From Escherichia phage vB_EcoS_HdH2, in sequence record NC_048748.1: a DNA stretch of 64,000 nucleotides; one strand, given 5' to 3'. This document shows, piece after piece, positions 24,074-35,506 of this stretch. The notes below the pieces were generated by a model. That model searched no databases and had not been told where the DNA came from. It worked only from the letters and a program-made list of their open reading frames with translations. The translations under genes and the position numbers were made by a program. Positions within the stretch are counted from its first letter, which is position 1. Each line of letters begins with the position of its first letter.

Positions 24074-24454
24074 TCATGTAATATTAGTTTCTCTAGCTTT
24101 GCGTAGTACCCCTGCATTTCTCCATAACTTAATATCGTCTACTGTTTCTTTATAAGGAGCTATGGTAAAACCTAGTGGGCCAGCACTAAATAGCCCTAAG
24201 AATCCTATTGCACGCATATAGAATAAGCATTCTTCGCCTGTCATTTCTTCAACTGCTTTTCTTTGTTTTTCGTTTTCAAACTCGTGCTCCTTGTTGTCTA
24301 TACGAAGGTGTTTAATGAACCATTCAGCAGAATATTCATCTAAGTGTCTAAGTATAGCTACTGCATACCCAGTGCCAATTAAAAACCAAGTGGTAACAAG
24401 AATTAGTACTATAGTCATATAATCTCCGGTTAAGGTCAGCGACCAACTCACCAC
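24074..24454 (-). CDS. membrane protein
   Basis: 126 aa with hydrophobic segments. Confidence 0.4.
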   Translation of the reverse strand: MVSWSLTLTGDYMTIVLILVTTWFLIGTGYAVAILRHLDEYSAEWFIKHLRIDNKEHEFENEKQRKAVEEMTGEECLFYMRAIGFLGLFSAGPLGFTIAPYKETVDDIKLWRNAGVLRKARETNIT

Positions 24455-28463: not shown

Positions 28464-28628
28464 GTTGCTTCCTATTTCAACGGGATTTCTTTTTCAATAA
28501 CGGGAGACTTATCAGTCATAACTGCCATAGCCAACTGCTGAAGAAACTCGAAAGTTAGCTTTAAGCGTTCTTCGCCTAATTCAACCTCAACGTATTTCTT
28601 TTGTTTGTCAACCTTTAATTTTAGGTTA

Positions 28629-28850
28629 TCAGCCATCTTCGGATTCTCGTTGCTCGGCTACTGCTAGCCAGTCTGGTAAAAGAAACTTAGTACGAAACTC
28701 TTCATAAGATTCTTCTGGATAAAAGCTAAAACCTCCTTTCTCATCATTCAAGATAACAGAGCCGTCAGTTTGTTCATATGCTCGATATGTTTCTCCAATA
28801 ATGATAACTCGCTTATCAGTACTTTTATTACGAAACTCAAAAACGTGCAT
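28629..28850 (-). CDS. hypothetical protein
   Basis: 73 aa. Confidence 0.4.
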   Translation of the reverse strand: MHVFEFRNKSTDKRVIIIGETYRAYEQTDGSVILNDEKGGFSFYPEESYEEFRTKFLLPDWLAVAEQRESEDG

Positions 28851-28867
28851 AGAGATTCCTTAAAGAT

Positions 28868-28943
28868 TGGTGCGGGATACGAGAGTCGAACTCGTGTCTA
28901 CTGGTTGGAAGCCAGTTATTCTAGCCACTGAACTAATCACGCA
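28868..28943 (-). tRNA. tRNA-Gly (anticodon TCC)
   Basis: TTCGACT T-loop, CCA encoded, anticodon loop CTTCCAA; one acceptor mismatch. Confidence 0.5.
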
Positions 28944-28948
28944 TAAAT

Positions 28949-29023
28949 TGGCAGGAAAGTAGGGATTCGAACCCTAACTAAGAGATTCAAAATCTCCAGT
29001 GCTAACCGTTACACTACTCTCCA
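28949..29023 (-). tRNA. tRNA-Gln-like (anticodon TTG); acceptor/T-stem register ambiguous
   Basis: TTCGAAT T-loop, anticodon loop TTTTGAA. Confidence 0.4.
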
Positions 29024-29029
29024 ATTGTT

Positions 29030-29105
29030 TGGCTGGGATGCCACGGATCGAACGTGGAACCTTCGGAGTCAGAGGCCGACGATCTGCCAATTGATCTACA
29101 TCCCA
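29030..29105 (-). tRNA. tRNA, probable anticodon CTG (Gln)
   Basis: CCACG/TTCGATC/CGTGG T arm, perfect acceptor TGGGATG/CATCCCA. Confidence 0.45.
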
Positions 29106-29118
29106 ATAATTCTTTACT

Positions 29119-29313
29119 CTACGGAAATAGAGTAACTGGCTCAGGGTCTTCAAGACGCTTACCTTCATGATCTACTCGAATGACTCCACATCCTTCGCAA
29201 ACCACAACTGCACCATAACCTTCTTTGACTTCGGCTTCTGTAATCAAACCAGAAAGATCACCAGTATCTCTGCCCCACATATCAATGGAGCATTGTTTGC
29301 AGAAATCAGCCAT
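29119..29313 (-). CDS. small Cys-rich protein (zinc ribbon)
   Basis: CKQC ... CEGC pairs. Confidence 0.35.
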   Translation of the reverse strand: MADFCKQCSIDMWGRDTGDLSGLITEAEVKEGYGAVVVCEGCGVIRVDHEGKRLEDPEPVTLFP

Positions 29314-29338
29314 ATTTTATTTCCTATTTAAGTTAACT

Positions 29339-29415
29339 TGGGGTGGCTAGTGGAATTCGAATCCACATAGGCCTGATTCACAATCAGGATCATTAACCAA
29401 TTATGATATAGCCAC
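29339..29415 (-). tRNA. tRNA-His (anticodon GTG)
   Basis: Anticodon arm CCTGA/TTGTGAA/TCAGG, extra 5' G typical of tRNA-His. Confidence 0.55.
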
Positions 29416-29782
29416 AATTGAAAACTCGCAGGGTTAGCGAAACCTTCCTCAATTAGCATGTTCTAGAATACTAATCAAGTTATCTCCTATTGCACGCAGC
29501 TCAAGACGAGTACGAATTTTCAATTGTGGTGGCTCTCAGAAACTCTTCTATTCTAGCCTCAGAAGCTTACCCCCGAACGCCTGTCGGGAAAGTCTTTCCA
29601 AGAGCATCAAATAGCACCGTTACACTTTGAGCCATTGATGTATCGAGGAATAGAAGGACTTGAACCTTCATGAGTTAGACCATTTAACTCAACCGCTTTT
29701 AAGGTATATTTCTAGGAGTGGATGTTCCTAGTAAACCTATTGGGCAGTCCCATCTACCAATTCCGGCATATTCCAAGAACTT

Positions 29783-29965
29783 TTATAAACCAGCAGAAGC
29801 CTCATTTAAAGCATCAACAATAGCCTGTTGTTGAGTCCATCCTCTACCAGTAGAATTAACGTGTGGAAGATATACTTCCCAATAACCGTCTTCTAGTAAA
29901 GTTATTTGTGCACTAAACTCTGTGCCATCAGTTAGTGTAACCTTCACAGTTTTCGTTAAAGACAT
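29783..29965 (-). CDS. hypothetical protein
   Basis: 60 aa. Confidence 0.35.
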   Translation of the reverse strand: MSLTKTVKVTLTDGTEFSAQITLLEDGYWEVYLPHVNSTGRGWTQQQAIVDALNEASAGL

Positions 29966-29980
29966 ATATTACCCTATAAG

Positions 29981-30070
29981 TTGGCAGAAGGTAATGGAGT
30001 CGAACCATCACCGTATCACTACAGCGGGCTAGTTTTCAAGACTAGTTGCGTACCACTACGCCCTACCTTC
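29981..30070 (-). tRNA. tRNA-Ser (anticodon TGA), type II
   Basis: 90 nt with long variable arm; anticodon arm CTAGT/CTTGAAA/ACTAG. Confidence 0.55.
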
Positions 30071-30077
30071 TATTTGT

Positions 30078-30168
30078 TTGGCGGAAGAGGAGAGATTTGA
30101 ACTCTCAAGCCGTTTTACCAGTCAGCCACTTTCCAAGCGGTTTTCGTCGCCAATTCGATTTGCTCTTC
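30078..30168 (-). tRNA. type II tRNA (Ser/Leu class; anticodon possibly GGA)
   Basis: 91 nt, TTCAAAT T-loop, perfect 7-bp acceptor. Confidence 0.45.
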
Positions 30169-30280
30169 CAATAATAAGATGATGCCTCTATCACACCAGG
30201 CAGTTACGCCCCACTGGGATTCGAACCCATTAAAACAGCTCAACCGAGATAGTAGGTTTAATTTACTCTGAACATCAAAT

Positions 30281-30357
30281 TTGGTGCGTGACAAGGGATT
30301 CGAACCCTCAAAACCCGACTTCTAAGGACGGTATGTATGCCCATTCCATCAATCACG
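30281..30357 (-). tRNA. tRNA (anticodon unresolved, possibly TAG)
   Basis: GAGGG/TTCGAAT/CCCTT T arm and acceptor GCGTGAT/GTCACGC. Confidence 0.4.
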
Positions 30358-30362
30358 CGTAT

Positions 30363-30441
30363 TTGGTGGAGAATAACGGAATCGAACCGTTCTGATGTCC
30401 TCGGTGCAAGCGAGGTGTCCACTCCATGCAGACCCATTCCC
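30363..30441 (-). tRNA. tRNA-Ala (anticodon TGC)
   Basis: Anticodon arm CCTCG/CTTGCAC/CGAGG, T-loop TTCGATT. Confidence 0.5.
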
Positions 30442-30700
30442 CAAATTCTTTAGTTTACTAAGGCTATTAGCTCGGCGTAACTACAGCACCTTCGCTTCGA
30501 GCGGAAGGAACCGCGTCATCTCGCAAACCCGATACACTATTCAGTTGCCATGAATCTAGTGGACTAATCTAGAACTTCTCCCAAATCGTAGGGATCGTGC
30601 TTTTTGGCAGCCAGTCCTAGGTCGAGCTAATACCTTAGTGAACTATGATGAGGATTTCTCCCCATCAATTTATATAAATATTATAACAAGAAATTAAGCA

Positions 30701-31060
30701 TTAAGCAAGTACATTTTTGCAGATTTCTTGTAGTTCCTTTACATCACGAACGTAAAGATAGTCTGAACTTCCAGAGTGCATACTTTGCATAAACACACCC
30801 TCATCTGGCGCAGTATCCTTCAAAGTAATTCCTAACCAGAACTCGGCAAAACTAGGTGTTATCTCACCTTGACTTGCCTTGAATACATCGGCTTCTGTGA
30901 TCTCCTGACCAGTAGAAAGTCCCATATACGGTACGTTCAGATCAATATCTTTGTAGAATTCAGCTAGGTCTTGTTCGAAGTCCCAACCTTTAGAGATAGC
31001 GAACTCTATTGTTACATGACCGAAATAGCCTTGAACCTTGCTTGATAATTGCATTTGCAA
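30701..31060 (-). CDS. hypothetical protein
   Basis: 119 aa. Confidence 0.45.
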   Translation of the reverse strand: MQMQLSSKVQGYFGHVTIEFAISKGWDFEQDLAEFYKDIDLNVPYMGLSTGQEITEADVFKASQGEITPSFAEFWLGITLKDTAPDEGVFMQSMHSGSSDYLYVRDVKELQEICKNVLA

Positions 31061-31079
31061 TTCCTTATTTTGAGTTAAT

Positions 31080-31152
31080 TGGTACTCGGTGATAGAATCG
31101 AACTATCGCAACCGCCGTGTAAAGACGGGGTTCTCCCATTAAACTAACCGAG
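31080..31152 (-). tRNA. tRNA-Val (anticodon TAC)
   Basis: Loop TTTACAC, T arm GATAG/TTCGATT/CTATC. Confidence 0.5.
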
Positions 31153-31286
31153 CAAAAGATTTGCTACTAAAAATGCTTCGAACAGAAATTCACAAAATCC
31201 CGCTAAAAACATACCTATTGTAAAATCGGCAGAAAATACATAGGAATCTTTTATTTTCTGCTTCATTAAGTAAAACCAGATAGTCA

Positions 31287-31604
31287 TTAAAATCTCTCCA
31301 TTCTAAAGCCAATGAAGTAAGGTGCATTACACGGAACATGCTTAAGATCTTTGAGAGTAATTTTACGTCCTAAGCGTCGTTCCATACAAGTGAAACATAG
31401 AACAATATCTTTGGGCTGCTCTTTTCTTATCTGATCCCAGACCCAATCTTCAACCATACACATTTCATGGTATTGTTCACAGTCTCGACAATAATGACAC
31501 TGATGTTCTGGTACTTTTTGATTTTTAATACACAGTTCGGTAAAGCGTTTTCCGGCTCTGCCAGACATTTCTGATATTGTTTCTAGAACTTTGTTAATAT
31601 TCAT
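31287..31604 (-). CDS. Cys-rich hypothetical protein
   Basis: 105 aa; CHYCRDC ... CFTC. Confidence 0.45.
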   Translation of the reverse strand: MNINKVLETISEMSGRAGKRFTELCIKNQKVPEHQCHYCRDCEQYHEMCMVEDWVWDQIRKEQPKDIVLCFTCMERRLGRKITLKDLKHVPCNAPYFIGFRMERF

Positions 31605-31621
31605 AACAAATTCCTTTAAAT

Positions 31622-31700
31622 TGGTAGATCGCCTGGGACTCGAACCCAGAACCTTCCGATTAAAAGTCGGATGCTGCTAAACCTATTGCGCTAGCGACCT
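31622..31700 (-). tRNA. tRNA-Lys (anticodon TTT)
   Basis: Anticodon arm TCCGA/CTTTTAA/TCGGA, T arm CTGGG/TTCGAGT/CCCAG. Confidence 0.55.
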
Positions 31701-31889
31701 ATTAGTAGCCATTATATACTTCTTTAATAGAATGGACTTTTAAGTAAGAATGATTAATCCCAAACTCCGCCATTACTTCTTTTTCATCTTTTCCATAATG
31801 TGCAAGTAAGGATCTTGAGGTATTATTACCTAAACGTTTGTCACTTACTACTAATCGAAATACTTTCATTTCGAAATCCTCTATTAAAA

Positions 31890-31967
31890 TGGAAGCGGGT
31901 GCAGGAATCGAACCTACCTCTTTCTAGCTTATGAGACTAGCGATCTCTACCAGAGATCTAACCCGCA
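31890..31967 (-). tRNA. tRNA with CAT anticodon (Met/fMet/Ile2)
   Basis: Anticodon loop CTCATAA; U-U at acceptor 1:72. Confidence 0.45.
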
Positions 31968-31973
31968 ATTGTT

Positions 31974-32049
31974 TGGTCAGTGCGGCAGGACTCGAACCTG
32001 CGACCCGAAGCATCCAAGGCTCCCACGCTACCAACTGCGCTACGCACTG
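31974..32049 (-). tRNA. tRNA-Pro (anticodon TGG)
   Basis: Perfect acceptor CAGTGCG/CGCACTG, anticodon arm GGAGC/CTTGGAT/GCTTC. Confidence 0.55.
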
Positions 32050-32258
32050 TTAATTTTTGTTAACTCACTTTATAAAATATATTATACAGATAATTAAGCA
32101 TAATAGCAAATGAATTTTTAATAAATTTACTTATTGTGTAGGCCACCTGGAGGCTACCAACCCCACGGCTGACAAAGAAGTTTGCGAGACTTCTCTTAAA
32201 AGCCAGAATAGACCCGCCGATCTATCGGAACCTACATAATAAGTAAACTTTATAGTGT

Positions 32259-32379
32259 CATTCTAGACAGGATTCGAACCTGTTATCCCTTGTGCGGACT
32301 TACGAGAACCCTTCTTTCACTCGAATCGAACGAGCTTCTGCCCTCGCCAAGTTGGTTTCCCCATCAACCACGCTAGAAT
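32259..32379 (-). ncRNA. tRNA-like element about 121 nt with two T-arm-like hairpins and a matched acceptor-like stem
   Basis: ATTCTAG/CTAGAAT ends, D-arm-like TGGT...ACCA, hairpins GCTCG-TTCGATT-CGAGT and ACAGG-TTCGAAT-CCTGT. Confidence 0.35.
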
Positions 32380-32501
32380 GTTTGGTTGTTTTCAGTGCAA
32401 GAGTCCGAGTCTTGGACACGACCGCTTCGCAAGTACATAGGCAGCTTATCATGAGTCAGCACTTCCGAATTGCTAGCTCCGTGTTCTGCACTGAAATTTT
32501 A

Positions 32502-33146: not shown

Positions 33147-33247
33147 GCTTGTTTCCTCAGTTATTAATGAAAATGGTATCTGTGGCTGAATTCGATGTCA
33201 GCAATGATAGCTGGTTGGCTACCGGTTTACTTAACTCTACACAGAAT

Positions 33248-34168: not shown

Positions 34169-34259
34169 TGGTGTTGGATGATGGAGTCGAACCACCCGAG
34201 ACCCTTCCGAGTCGGCAGATTTACAGTCTGCTTCGCTACCTCTACGATACTAATCCAAC
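34169..34259 (-). tRNA. tRNA-Tyr (anticodon GTA), type II
   Basis: 91 nt, anticodon arm GCAGA/CTGTAAA/TCTGC, long variable arm. Confidence 0.55.
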
Positions 34260-34387
34260 ATATTTAAAAGTATTCAAATACTAGTTTAAACACTTTTAAA
34301 TATGTTTCCGAATTAGATAACTATTATACCAAGTTTTAAGGCACTGAGCAAGTCAAATTTTAAAGAACTTGCTCAGTGCTGTATTAG

Positions 34388-35428: not shown

Positions 35429-35506
35429 TGGTGGCTCCCCGAGGATTCGAACCTACGTACCTTCCGGTTATGAGCCGGGTGCTCATACCATATGAGCTTG
35501 AGAACC
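35429..35506 (-). tRNA. tRNA-like with CAT anticodon; T stem has a bulge
   Basis: Acceptor GGTTCTC/GGGAGCC pairs with G-U; loop CTCATAA. Confidence 0.35.

What the first reader, a model, noticed from the sequence alone, without database searches (positions are those of the whole stretch)
29415..29780. Structured non-coding interval inside the tRNA cluster without a canonical tRNA
caattgaaaactcg at 29415 pairs with cgagtacgaattttcaattg at about 29509, enclosing about 80 nt. Further on there is a GGTTCAAGTCC-type T-arm (about 29653-29669) with no matching 5' acceptor. No ORF of 60 aa or more explains the interval. It may hold a small stable RNA, a degenerate tRNA or a processing signal.
Basis: seen in the sequence. 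Interest (0 to 1): 0.4.

Follow-up and report, generated by a model that had tools for sequence, protein, structure and literature searches.

The report
Three known T5 stable small RNAs
The flagged gap in this T5-like phage's tRNA cluster holds three small structured RNAs already annotated in phage T5 (RNAIII, RNAI and the tRNA-like RNA1), whose function has been unknown since the 1980s.

Summary
The window is a T5-like coliphage (Tequintavirus). All its tRNA genes are on the minus strand.

The interval 29416-29782 is about 96-97% identical to the stretch of the phage T5 reference genome that carries three annotated misc_RNAs. In window coordinates, minus strand:
- **RNAIII:** 29417-29522.
- **RNAI:** 29527-29633.
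- **RNA1:** 29634-29777.

It is the 15-bp terminal stem of RNAIII, far beyond chance, and specific to the minus strand through G-U pairs.

RNA1 is a class II, tRNA-Leu-like cloverleaf. Its anticodon loop is replaced by a 47-nt helical extension capped by a nearly invariant ACAUCCAC loop. Comparative support is strong: 95% of cells paired and 14 compensatory pairs.

RNAI is a rod-shaped hairpin with tRNA-type ends (G1 ... NCCA).

The position of RNAIII is a variable slot. At least six cassette classes (33-148 nt) share only the terminal stem.

None of these RNAs has an Rfam family. A viable T5 deletion mutant lacks all three. They are most likely excised from the polycistronic tRNA transcript by host tRNA-processing nucleases. 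Their function remains unknown. The feature is already known, so interest is modest.

The parts
29417..29522 (-). RNAIII homologue, 106 nt. It is a three-way junction closed by a long terminal stem.
   Evidence: It is 99% identical to T5 misc_RNA rnaIII (NC_005859 30284-30389) by alignment A1. The MFE is -31.4 kcal/mol with z = -3.27 on the minus strand, against z = -0.69 on the plus strand.
29511..29525 (-). 5' strand of the 15-bp terminal stem (AAUUGAAAAUUCGUA).
   Evidence: It pairs with 29416-29430. Across five cassette classes, 98.7% of cells are paired, 8 of 15 pairs show compensatory changes, and 0 of 500 shuffles reach this.
29416..29430 (-). 3' strand of the terminal stem (UGCGAGUUUUCAAUU). 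Position 29416 is the -1 nucleotide of tRNA-His.
29448..29479 (-). Internal hairpin of RNAIII (11-12 bp, including G-U pairs).
   Evidence: Predicted by the MFE fold and by RNAalifold. No covariation is available because the sequence is 95-100% conserved.
29523..29526 (-). 4-nt spacer CAAU between the CCA end of RNAI and the annotated 5' end of RNAIII.
   Evidence: T5 annotation mapped through alignment A1.
29527..29633 (-). RNAI homologue, 107 nt. It is an irregular rod-shaped hairpin with a 5-bp terminal stem GGCUC/GAGCC and an encoded 3' ACCA.
   Evidence: It is 96% identical to T5 rnaI. The consensus fold of 23 sequences keeps all 30 pairs, with one compensatory pair. A second type (100 nt) shares only the base of the rod and has 3 compensatory pairs. 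The leader and trailer look like those of the neighbouring tRNAs.
29634..29777 (-). RNA1 homologue (144 nt as annotated in T5). The tRNA-like core is 29645-29775.
   Evidence: It is 93% identical to T5 rna1. The covariance model R1 scores it at 163.8 bits.
29769..29775 (-). RNA1 acceptor stem, 5' strand (UGGAAUA).
   Evidence: It pairs with 29646-29652, and 4 of 7 pairs show changes on both sides.
29750..29766 (-). RNA1 D arm (CCG-GAAUUGGUAGA-UGG), of the tRNA-Leu type.
   Evidence: 100% of cells are paired. The next-best matches of model R1 are phage tRNA-Leu genes.
29692..29748 (-). RNA1 extended 'anticodon' arm. A 5-bp stem (29744-29748 with 29692-29696) closes a 47-nt insert that contains two further helices.
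   Evidence: Helices 3-5 show 9 pairs with compensatory changes. ARAGORN -i reads 40 nt of the insert as an 'intron'.
29718..29725 (-). ACAUCCAC octaloop capping the extended arm. It is identical in 38 of 39 distinct homologues; T5 itself has ACAUCCGC.
   Evidence: Alignment A2, columns 53-60, across Tequintavirus, Epseptimavirus and Klebsiella Sugarlandvirus sequences.
29672..29690 (-). RNA1 long variable arm (6-bp stem with AAUGGUC loop).
   Evidence: 100% of cells are paired, and pair 92-104 occurs as AU, UA and CG.
29653..29669 (-). RNA1 T arm GAAGG-UUCAAGU-CCUUC.
29646..29652 (-). RNA1 acceptor stem, 3' strand (UAUUCCU). The discriminator is C at 29645. No CCA is encoded.
29339..29415 (-). 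tRNA-His(GUG), immediately 3' of RNAIII. Its first four bases, GUGG, can extend the RNAIII terminal helix by pairing with the CCA end of RNAI plus the C that follows it.

Best explanation
The interval encodes, on the minus strand, the homologues of three small stable RNAs of bacteriophage T5: RNA1, RNAI and RNAIII, in 5'-to-3' order. They lie between a 60-aa ORF and tRNA-His, inside a polycistronic early transcript that also carries tRNAs.

**Shown**
- Identity with the T5 RNAs by sequence and by gene order.
- RNA1 is a class II, tRNA-Leu-like cloverleaf. Its 7-nt anticodon loop is replaced by a 47-nt helical extension ending in a nearly invariant ACAUCCAC loop, so it cannot decode. It has no encoded CCA and a U-U mismatch at position 1:72.
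- RNAI is a rod-like hairpin whose ends are built like a tRNA acceptor end (G1, a 5-bp stem, then an N-CCA 3' tail).
- RNAIII is a three-way junction closed by a 15-bp helix. This helix is the only part shared by at least six alternative cassettes that occupy the same slot in related phages.

**Inferred**
- The three RNAs are cut out of the precursor by host tRNA-maturation enzymes. RNase P would cut at the 5' end of RNAI and at tRNA-His. 3' exonucleases would trim back to the CCA of RNAI.
- RNase III may cut the 19-bp precursor helix CCACAAUUGAAAAUUCGUA / UGCGAGUUUUCAAUUGUGG. The RNAIII ends annotated in T5 leave exactly the 2-nt 3' overhang that RNase III produces.
- The RNAs persist because their ends are buried in helices.
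- They are accessory. They are dispensable in the laboratory, and their trans-acting role, if any, is unknown. A tRNA or acceptor-end mimic that engages a tRNA-binding host factor is the most plausible guess.
For: **Identity**
- The window is 96-97% identical to T5 over the interval.
- T5 RefSeq NC_005859 annotates rnaIII 30284-30389, rnaI 30394-30500 and rna1 30501-30644 between tRNA-His and T5.063.
- BF23 and Salmonella phage 5 carry the same annotations.
- 497 phage records match the interval, and 260 of them cover at least 80% of it.

**RNA1 structure**
- 95.0% of 1404 cells are paired, against 40-50% for slid controls.
- 14 of 36 pairs show changes on both sides, and 0 of 500 shuffles reach this.
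- RNAalifold independently finds the same helices apart from the D stem.
- ARAGORN -i calls it a tRNA-Leu with a 40-nt insert.
- After the RNA1 homologues themselves, model R1 scores phage tRNA-Leu genes best (37 and 30 bits).

**RNAI**
- Consensus folds for both types.
- A tRNA-like leader ending in U and an encoded CCA.

**RNAIII**
- z = -3.3 to -3.5 on the minus strand only.
- Covariation of the terminal stem across cassette classes.

**Co-transcription**
- T5 annotates no promoter or terminator between P13b and P11.
- No minus-strand promoter-like site was found in 28500-31500.

**Precedent**
- E. coli RNase III takes part in T4 tRNA maturation (PMC4810235).

**Dispensability**
- The T5-123 deletion 29191-32442 is viable (PMC11464382). 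It spans 30284-30644.
Against: - No expression or end-mapping data could be examined for this phage. The ends are transferred from the T5 annotation, and I could not read its experimental basis.
- RNAIII itself shows no covariation because it is 95-100% conserved. Its internal hairpin acquires a U-U mismatch in Epseptimavirus variants.
- The RNAI fold has only a modest z-score (-1.33) and only one compensatory pair in type A.
- RNAI lacks the continuous 12-bp acceptor/T stack that RNase P prefers.
- The RNase III step rests on geometry alone. One variant (L012) breaks a pair next to the proposed cut.
- No target, partner or phenotype is known. No antisense match above chance was found in the 64-kb window.
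Confidence: 0.85

Rival explanations
1. RNA1 is a functional tRNA gene (Leu, or Phe as annotated in one genome) interrupted by a 40-nt intron that is spliced out to restore a 7-nt anticodon loop.
For: ARAGORN with introns allowed returns tRNA-Leu(taa), 91 nt, plus a 40-nt intron. Phage JLBYU43 annotates the homologue as tRNA-Phe(aaa), 135 nt. All other tRNA elements are intact.
Against: - The would-be anticodon differs between close relatives: UAA in this window, CAU-like or GAA-like in others, sometimes with an 8-nt loop (alignment A2).
- The 'intron' sits at the non-canonical position 32/33.
- From my own knowledge, not tested here: bacteria have no known machinery for splicing 40-nt tRNA introns, and the insert has no group I features. 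No Rfam match was found.
- The insert is itself under structural selection and carries a nearly invariant loop. That is the opposite of a disposable intron.
- No CCA is encoded, the discriminator is C or U rather than the A73 of tRNA-Leu, and position 1:72 is a U-U mismatch.
Confidence: 0.03
2. The inverted repeat at 29412-29529 acts at the DNA level (cruciform, protein-binding palindrome, recombination or homing site, or transcription terminator) rather than as an RNA helix.
For: - CAATTG is a palindrome.
- The slot holds different cassettes in different phages, as an insertion or recombination hotspot would.
- T5-like tRNA regions carry HNH homing endonucleases.
- A weak terminator-like pattern overlaps the 3' arm.
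Against: - The stem keeps G-U pairs that are A-C mismatches on the other strand. Folding is significant only for the minus-strand RNA (z = -3.27 against -0.69).
- 8 of 15 stem pairs covary between cassette classes.
- The U-run lies inside the helix, and the terminator-like pattern is absent from the other cassettes.
- tRNA-His follows immediately and must be transcribed through the element.
- The motif occurs only once in the window.
Confidence: 0.05
3. The interval encodes one or more small peptides, as several GenBank annotations of relatives suggest, and the structures are incidental.
For: Automatic annotations place 'hypothetical protein' CDSs over parts of the interval in SSP1, JLBYU43, Sw2 and OSY-STA. 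A 24-aa TTG ORF at 29449-29523 shows two synonymous-looking changes.
Against: - The called ORFs differ from genome to genome and overlap tRNA-His or RNA boundaries.
- The TTG start is lost in L012 (CAATAG), and no Shine-Dalgarno sequence precedes it.
- The middle of RNAI and the whole of RNAIII are replaced by unrelated sequence in relatives while the paired ends are kept.
- The substitutions in RNA1 are compensatory base-pair changes, not codon-patterned changes.
Confidence: 0.03
4. The three RNAs are functionless processing by-products. They are decayed tRNA genes and spacer hairpins that merely survive because they are structured.
For: - A viable T5 deletion mutant lacks them.
- RNAIII and RNAI are absent or replaced in many relatives.
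- No target was found.
- The window also carries other degenerate tRNA-like pieces.
Against: - RNA1 is retained from Tequintavirus to Klebsiella Sugarlandvirus, with 14 compensatory pairs and two nearly invariant loops, ACAUCCAC and AAUGGUC. That indicates purifying selection on more than stability.
- RNAIII is 95-100% identical where the neighbouring RNA1 is only 77-97% identical.
- The conserved internal loops at the base of RNAI are shared by two otherwise different RNAI types.
Confidence: 0.25

Closest known systems
Bacteriophage T5 / BF23 / Salmonella phage 5 stable RNAs RNAIII, RNAI and RNA1 (GenBank misc_RNA rnaIII, rnaI, rna1; Ksenzenko et al. 1982 BBA 697:235)
   Same: Sequence is 93-99% identical per RNA. 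The order and neighbours are the same (60-aa ORF, RNA1, RNAI, CAAU spacer, RNAIII, tRNA-His), and so is the strand.
   Different: Nothing of substance; this is the same set of genes in a different Tequintavirus isolate. The discriminator before the CCA of RNAI is A here and G in T5. There are a few compensatory differences in RNA1.
Canonical class II tRNA-Leu (Rfam RF00005)
   Same: RNA1 has an acceptor stem, U8-G9, a Leu-type D arm (GAAUUGGUAGA), a 5-bp anticodon stem, a long variable arm and a GGUUCAAGUCC T arm in the standard spacing. tRNA-Leu genes are the best non-self matches of its model.
   Different: - The anticodon loop is replaced by a 47-nt structured extension.
- No CCA is encoded.
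- The discriminator is C or U, not A73.
- Position 1:72 is a U-U mismatch.
- The Rfam tRNA score is 22.8 bits, below the threshold of 29, and that only for a partial alternative alignment.
Phage T4 RNAC and RNAD (species 1 and 2 RNAs of the T4 tRNA cluster)
   Same: They are small stable RNAs co-located with phage tRNA genes, they are made during infection, and their biological role is still unknown (PMC3014915; PMC9697503).
   Different: No sequence relationship was tested or is expected. T4 and T5 are unrelated phages, and PMC9697503 classifies the T4 RNAs as late.
RNase III processing stems in polycistronic stable-RNA precursors (rRNA operons, T4 tRNA precursors)
   Same: A long helix of 15-19 bp is formed by sequences flanking a module in a multi-RNA precursor. 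The annotated RNAIII ends are staggered by 2 nt on the 3' side. RNase III takes part in T4 tRNA maturation (PMC4810235).
   Different: Cleavage has not been demonstrated here. The helix is at the short end for E. coli RNase III (my own knowledge, not tested). Four of its base pairs compete with the tRNA-His acceptor stem.
RNase P-matured phage hairpin RNAs (P1/P7 C4 and P4 CI antisense RNAs) and 4.5S RNA. Recalled from memory, not checked here.
   Same: Like RNAI, these are rod- or hairpin-shaped RNAs rather than cloverleaves. Their 5' ends are made by RNase P and their 3' ends resemble an acceptor end.
   Different: C4 and CI act as antisense RNAs on known phage targets. No complementary target above chance was found for RNAI in this window. 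There is no sequence similarity and no Rfam match.

Membership tests
T5 stable RNAs RNAIII / RNAI / RNA1 (as annotated in NC_005859, NC_042564, AJ604531) | Sequence homology to the annotated RNAs over their full length | tested here: met
   RNAIII 99%, RNAI 96% and RNA1 93% identity to T5, each over its full length.
T5 stable RNAs RNAIII / RNAI / RNA1 (as annotated in NC_005859, NC_042564, AJ604531) | Same genomic position and strand: between the T5.063-like ORF and tRNA-His, in the sense of the tRNA genes | tested here: met
   ORF 29783-29965 (-), then RNA1, RNAI, RNAIII, then tRNA-His 29339-29415 (-).
T5 stable RNAs RNAIII / RNAI / RNA1 (as annotated in NC_005859, NC_042564, AJ604531) | Accumulation as discrete stable RNA species in infected cells | not testable with these tools
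   No RNA data are available for this phage. The 1982 paper is known to me only from a reference list.
tRNA (Rfam RF00005), for RNA1 | Reaches the family's gathering score | tested here: not met
   22.8 bits against a threshold of 29, for a partial alignment of 29645-29713. ARAGORN in default mode makes no call.
tRNA (Rfam RF00005), for RNA1 | Acceptor stem, D arm, T arm with a GTTCRANYC-type loop, and a variable region in standard spacing | tested here: met
   All are present and supported by covariation. The acceptor stem has 6 bp plus a U-U mismatch at 1:72.
tRNA (Rfam RF00005), for RNA1 | 7-nt anticodon loop with U33 and a conserved anticodon | tested here: not met
   47 nt lie between the two strands of the anticodon stem. 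The triplet that ARAGORN reads differs between relatives.
tRNA (Rfam RF00005), for RNA1 | 3' CCA end and aminoacylation | tested here: not met
   No CCA is encoded; the trailer is C/U-GAUA, unlike all 24 tRNAs of the cluster. This row is 'not met' for the encoded CCA only. Post-transcriptional CCA addition and charging cannot be tested here.
RNase III substrate, for the RNAIII terminal helix | Uninterrupted double-stranded RNA of about two helical turns | tested here: inconclusive
   There are 15 bp within the slot. The helix reaches 19 bp if the CCA of RNAI plus the following C pairs with GUGG of tRNA-His.
RNase III substrate, for the RNAIII terminal helix | Product ends staggered with a 2-nt 3' overhang | tested here: met
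   In the 111-nt slot, the annotated 5' end (position 5) pairs with position 108, and the annotated 3' end is position 110. This relies on the T5 annotation.
RNase III substrate, for the RNAIII terminal helix | Cleavage depends on rnc | not testable with these tools
   This needs RNA end mapping in rnc mutant hosts.
Any other curated RNA family (Rfam 15: ribozymes, sRNAs, tmRNA, Y RNA and others) | Match to a covariance model | tested here: not met
   The window and related loci give only tRNA matches at the gathering threshold. The permissive search of the interval, at E up to 10, gave only the sub-threshold tRNA match and two E>4 chance matches (SNORD57, RgsA). The search of four loci carrying alternative cassettes, at E up to 1, gave no match over the cassettes.

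The most novel reading that the evidence does not exclude
The tRNA cluster of T5-like phages carries a modular, fast-swapping array of tRNA-mimicking RNAs that act as anti-defence decoys.
- RNA1 is a tRNA-Leu body whose anticodon is replaced by a rigid extension with a nearly invariant loop. It would titrate or block a host tRNA-targeting factor such as an anticodon nuclease, a toxin or a sensor.
- RNAI would be an acceptor-end mimic.
- The RNAIII slot, with at least six unrelated cassettes held by one conserved stem, would be an arms-race locus where RNA cargoes are exchanged between phages.
Probability: 0.12. Interest if true: 0.75.

Novelty: already known. Interest (0 to 1): 0.3.

Why it matters
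As a scan result this is ordinary. The flagged gap is explained by three RNAs that have been annotated in the T5 reference genome for about two decades and were described in the 1980s.

It still has some value.
- **Curation gap.** These RNAs have no Rfam family. They are left blank or mis-annotated in most of the roughly 500 related genomes, for example as 'hypothetical protein' or 'tRNA-Phe(aaa)'.
- **Open question.** Their function is unknown, as it is for T4 RNAC and RNAD.
- **Starting points for experiments.** The comparative structures derived here give concrete handles: the RNA1 cloverleaf with an extended anticodon arm and a nearly invariant loop, the tRNA-like ends of RNAI, and the cassette polymorphism around a conserved 15-bp stem. 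This is timely because T5 tRNAs have been shown to neutralise tRNA-cleaving defences such as PARIS.

Tried and rejected
- **Rfam.** At the gathering threshold the window and 7 loci gave only tRNAs. At permissive E-values the interval and the alternative cassettes gave only a sub-threshold tRNA match and chance matches.
- **Antisense targets.** I searched the 64-kb window for targets of the three RNAs. The longest complementarities were 11-14 nt, within the range of shuffled controls. The 14-mer at 24203 is a same-sense repeat inside a minus-strand ORF, so it is not a target.
- **Host mimicry.** The interval has no blastn match in 5,426 complete E. coli genomes.
- **More distant RNA1 relatives.** An IMG/VR pattern scan returned only T5-like genomes plus chance hits in coding sequence.
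- **RNA1 paralogues.** Model R1 finds one copy per genome. T5 RNA2 and RNA3 are not detectable relatives.
- **Module shuffling.** The alternative cassettes have no homologue elsewhere in the window or in the T5 tRNA region.
- **Other explanations.** Terminator, small-ORF and intron readings were rejected; see the rival explanations.
- **Literature.** I could not find or read the primary 1980s papers in the held library. The T4 genome review is not held.
Full report
**What the window is.** ARAGORN finds 24 tRNA genes, all on the minus strand, between 27.3 and 39.2 kb. Rfam at the gathering threshold finds only tRNAs. An 801-nt query around the finding matches 440 phage records, nearly all Escherichia or Salmonella T5-like phages (Demerecviridae, Tequintavirus and Epseptimavirus). 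The best match is 98% identical. The window is therefore a T5-like phage genome, and the finding lies in its tRNA cluster.

**Checking the observation.**
- The repeat finder reports the pair as 29412-29428 / 29513-29529: 17 nt, 94% complementary, 84 nt apart.
- None of 100 dinucleotide-preserving shuffles of the 13.5-kb tRNA region produced an inverted repeat of at least 16/17 within 20-260 nt.
- The T-arm GAAGG-TTCAAGT-CCTTC, read on the minus strand, is exactly at 29653-29669.
- No ORF of 60 aa or more lies in the interval.
- These points are confirmed. The statement that the T-arm has no 5' acceptor partner is wrong, as shown below.

**What is annotated there in relatives.** The T5 reference genome NC_005859 carries three misc_RNA features between tRNA-His and the small ORF T5.063:
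- rnaIII, 30284-30389, 106 nt, 'stable RNA with unknown functions'.
- rnaI, 30394-30500, 107 nt, with the same note.
- rna1, 30501-30644, 144 nt, 'tRNA-like stable RNA with unknown functions'.

The tRNA-region records of BF23 and Salmonella phage 5 carry the same three features. The window aligns to T5 across the whole interval with 97% mean column identity and one indel, which lies outside the three RNAs. This maps the RNAs to window coordinates, minus strand:
- RNA1, 29634-29777.
- RNAI, 29527-29633.
- A 4-nt spacer, CAAU, 29523-29526.
- RNAIII, 29417-29522.
- The -1 nucleotide of tRNA-His, 29416.

Most other deposited genomes leave the interval blank or place ad hoc 'hypothetical protein' CDSs on it. 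One annotates RNA1 as a 135-nt 'tRNA-Phe(aaa)'. [quoted passage not shown] I could see only its citation.

**RNA1 is a degenerate class II tRNA.** I collected 39 distinct homologues from GenBank phages and IMG/VR, including Klebsiella Sugarlandvirus phages at about 72% identity. On this alignment I tested a structure read from the sequence, given here from 5' to 3':
- Acceptor stem, 29769-29775 with 29646-29652.
- U8-G9.
- A 3-bp D stem with the loop GAAUUGGUAGA.
- A 5-bp anticodon stem, 29744-29748 with 29692-29696.
- A 6-bp variable arm with the loop AAUGGUC.
- The T arm.

In place of a 7-nt anticodon loop, 47 nt separate the two strands of the anticodon stem. These fold into two further helices capped by the octaloop ACAUCCAC (29718-29725).

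The counts support this structure:
- 95.0% of 1404 cells form standard pairs, against 40-50% when the 3' partners are slid by 1-3 columns.
- 14 of 36 pairs have changes on both sides.
- 0 of 500 shuffles reach the observed values.

RNAalifold independently recovers every helix except the short D stem. The octaloop is identical in 38 of the 39 sequences (T5 has ACAUCCGC) and the variable-arm loop in 38 of 39. A covariance model of RNA1 gives phage tRNA-Leu genes as its best non-self matches: T5 Leu1 at 37 bits and the window's tRNA-Leu(UAA) at 30 bits.

RNA1 is not a working tRNA, for four reasons:
- The triplet at the would-be anticodon differs between close relatives.
- No CCA is encoded, whereas every tRNA of the cluster encodes one.
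- The discriminator is C or U.
- Position 1:72 is a U-U mismatch.

Its Rfam tRNA score is 22.8 bits, below the threshold of 29.

**RNAI.** This 107-nt RNA begins GGCUC, immediately after a leader ending ...AUCAAU. It ends GAGCC-A-CCA and is followed by CAAUUG. This is the same boundary pattern as the neighbouring tRNAs. The consensus fold of 23 distinct sequences is an irregular rod. It keeps all 30 predicted pairs, mostly through G-U/A-U/G-C transitions, with one compensatory pair. A second type, 100 nt long and found in Epseptimavirus genomes, has the same first 20 and last 22 nt but an unrelated middle. It folds into the same kind of rod, with three compensatory pairs. The single-sequence z-score is modest (-1.33). 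I see no D or T arm. RNAI is an acceptor-end mimic on a rod, not a cloverleaf.

**RNAIII and its slot.** The minus-strand RNA folds to -31.4 kcal/mol (z = -3.27; 0 of 200 shuffles do as well). The plus strand gives z = -0.69. The structure is a 15-bp terminal stem with two G-U pairs, closing a three-way junction. The G-U pairs would be A-C mismatches on the other strand.

RNAIII is 95-100% identical in every genome that has it, while RNA1 next door is 77-97% identical. There is consequently no covariation within RNAIII.

The position between the CCA of RNAI and tRNA-His is occupied by at least six different cassettes, of 33, 68, 111 (the T5 type), 126, 138 and 148 nt.
- Their interiors are unrelated by BLAST, except that two classes share their 3' 34 nt.
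- None has an Rfam match.
- All begin CAAUU(G/A)A, end UCAAUU or UUAAUU, and fold with a 9-16 bp terminal stem. Five of the six have z between -2.3 and -4.6; the 138-nt class is weaker at z = -1.23.
- On an alignment of the stems of five classes, 98.7% of cells pair, 8 of 15 pairs have compensatory changes, and 0 of 500 shuffles reach this.

The helix is therefore the selected feature of the slot. Some genomes also have an extra cassette of about 116 nt between RNA1 and RNAI. The region behaves as a modular array of structured RNAs.

**How it most likely works.**

Shown:
- Three structured RNA modules lie on the tRNA strand, with tRNA-like features at their ends.
- In T5 there is no annotated promoter or terminator between P13b and P11.
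- The window has no minus-strand promoter-like site in 28.5-31.5 kb.

Inferred:
- The modules are co-transcribed with the tRNAs and released by host tRNA-maturation enzymes.
- RNase P would cut before G1 of RNAI and at tRNA-His. 3' exonucleases would trim to the CCA of RNAI.
- The helix around RNAIII can extend to 19 bp in the precursor (CCACAAUUGAAAAUUCGUA / UGCGAGUUUUCAAUUGUGG). It may be an RNase III site.
- The RNAIII ends annotated in T5 support this. In the 111-nt slot, the 5' end is at position 5 and pairs with position 108, and the 3' end is at position 110. This leaves exactly the 2-nt 3' overhang typical of RNase III.
- E. coli RNase III is reported to take part in T4 tRNA maturation (PMC4810235).

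This step rests on geometry only.

**Function.** Function is unknown.
- The RNAs are dispensable in the laboratory. The viable mutant T5-123 carries the deletion 29191-32442, which spans all three. It is PARIS-sensitive, and rescue mapped to a fragment carrying tRNA-Pro, fMet, Lys and Val (tRNA-Lys being the PARIS-resistant species), not to the segment holding these RNAs (PMC11464382).
- I found no antisense target above chance in the window.
- I found no similarity to any of 5,426 complete E. coli genomes.
- The strong conservation of the RNA1 architecture and loops from Escherichia to Klebsiella phages argues for a selected trans-acting role. A tRNA mimic that engages a tRNA-binding factor is the most plausible guess, but it is only a guess.

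**Comparison with what is known.**
- The element is a member of the T5 RNAIII/RNAI/RNA1 set, by homology and gene order.
- RNA1 works like a tRNA body but fails the tRNA membership tests on the anticodon loop, the CCA end and the Rfam score.
- The closest analogues elsewhere are T4 RNAC and RNAD. They are small RNAs from the T4 tRNA region whose roles are also unknown (PMC3014915; PMC9697503).
- RNase P-matured hairpin RNAs of P1 and P4 are a further analogy, recalled from memory and not checked.

**Verdict.**
- The interpretation ('small stable RNA, degenerate tRNA or processing signal') is supported.
- The feature is already known and annotated in the type phage, so novelty is low and interest modest.
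- What is possibly new here, though I could not check it against the old literature, is the covariation-backed RNA1 structure, the two RNAI types, and the cassette polymorphism around a conserved stem.

Noticed in passing
window 30080-30170 (-): This is the homologue of T5 tRNA-Ser2(GGA). ARAGORN and the Rfam tRNA model do not call it here. The only match is a sub-threshold tRNA-Sec hit (19.7 bits, threshold 47). T5's own note says this tRNA cannot be converted into a suppressor, so it may be another degenerate class II tRNA-like RNA.
   Followed up: partly
window about 30205-30280 (-): The spacer between tRNA-Leu(UAG) and the Ser2-like gene contains a T-arm-like GGGTTCGAATCCC with no tRNA call. 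T5 carries the HNH homing endonuclease hegC at this position and the window does not. It may be a tRNA remnant or a homing-site scar.
   Followed up: no
window 30462-30632, 32135-32237, 32256-32380, 33174-33246 (all -): These are homologues (97-100% identity) of four further T5 'stable RNAs of unknown function': RNA2H, RNAIV, RNA2 and RNA3. All fold with paired 5' and 3' ends. RNA2 has an acceptor stem plus a T arm, and RNA3 ends in ACCA. None is called by ARAGORN, and none is detectable with the RNA1 model.
   Followed up: partly
window 29415-29416 (-): The phage tRNA-His has U rather than G at position -1. The T5 annotation nevertheless includes this nucleotide in a 78-nt tRNA-His. From my own knowledge, bacterial tRNA-His normally needs an encoded G-1 opposite C73.
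   Followed up: no
L010 640-755, L012, L017, L031 (Epseptimavirus / Tequintavirus relatives): An additional structured cassette of about 116 nt is inserted between RNA1 and RNAI. It ends in CAAU just before RNAI. It has no Rfam match and no homologue in the window.
   Followed up: partly
L010 504-638 (Escherichia phage JLBYU43, OK272477): The RNA1 homologue is deposited as 'tRNA-Phe(aaa)', 135 nt. This is almost certainly an intron-mode tRNA-finder artefact. Several other records place hypothetical-protein CDSs over RNAI and RNAIII.
   Followed up: yes
window 35432-35506 and 39722-39793 (-): Rfam calls two tRNAs here (40.3 and 35.5 bits) that ARAGORN does not list. The first sits where T5 annotates tRNA-Ile2(CAU).
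   Followed up: no
window 34257-34306: A 22-nt, 91% complementary inverted repeat with a 6-nt loop lies just upstream of tRNA-Tyr. It is the strongest hairpin-type repeat in the tRNA region after the RNA-flanking stems.
   Followed up: no
L018-L020 (Klebsiella Sugarlandvirus phages), about 380-600 and 740-1000: In these phages the RNA1 homologue has different neighbours (tRNA-Ile, Met and Val) and no RNAI or RNAIII. The flanks contain further G+C-rich hairpins on which only short hypothetical CDSs are annotated.
   Followed up: no
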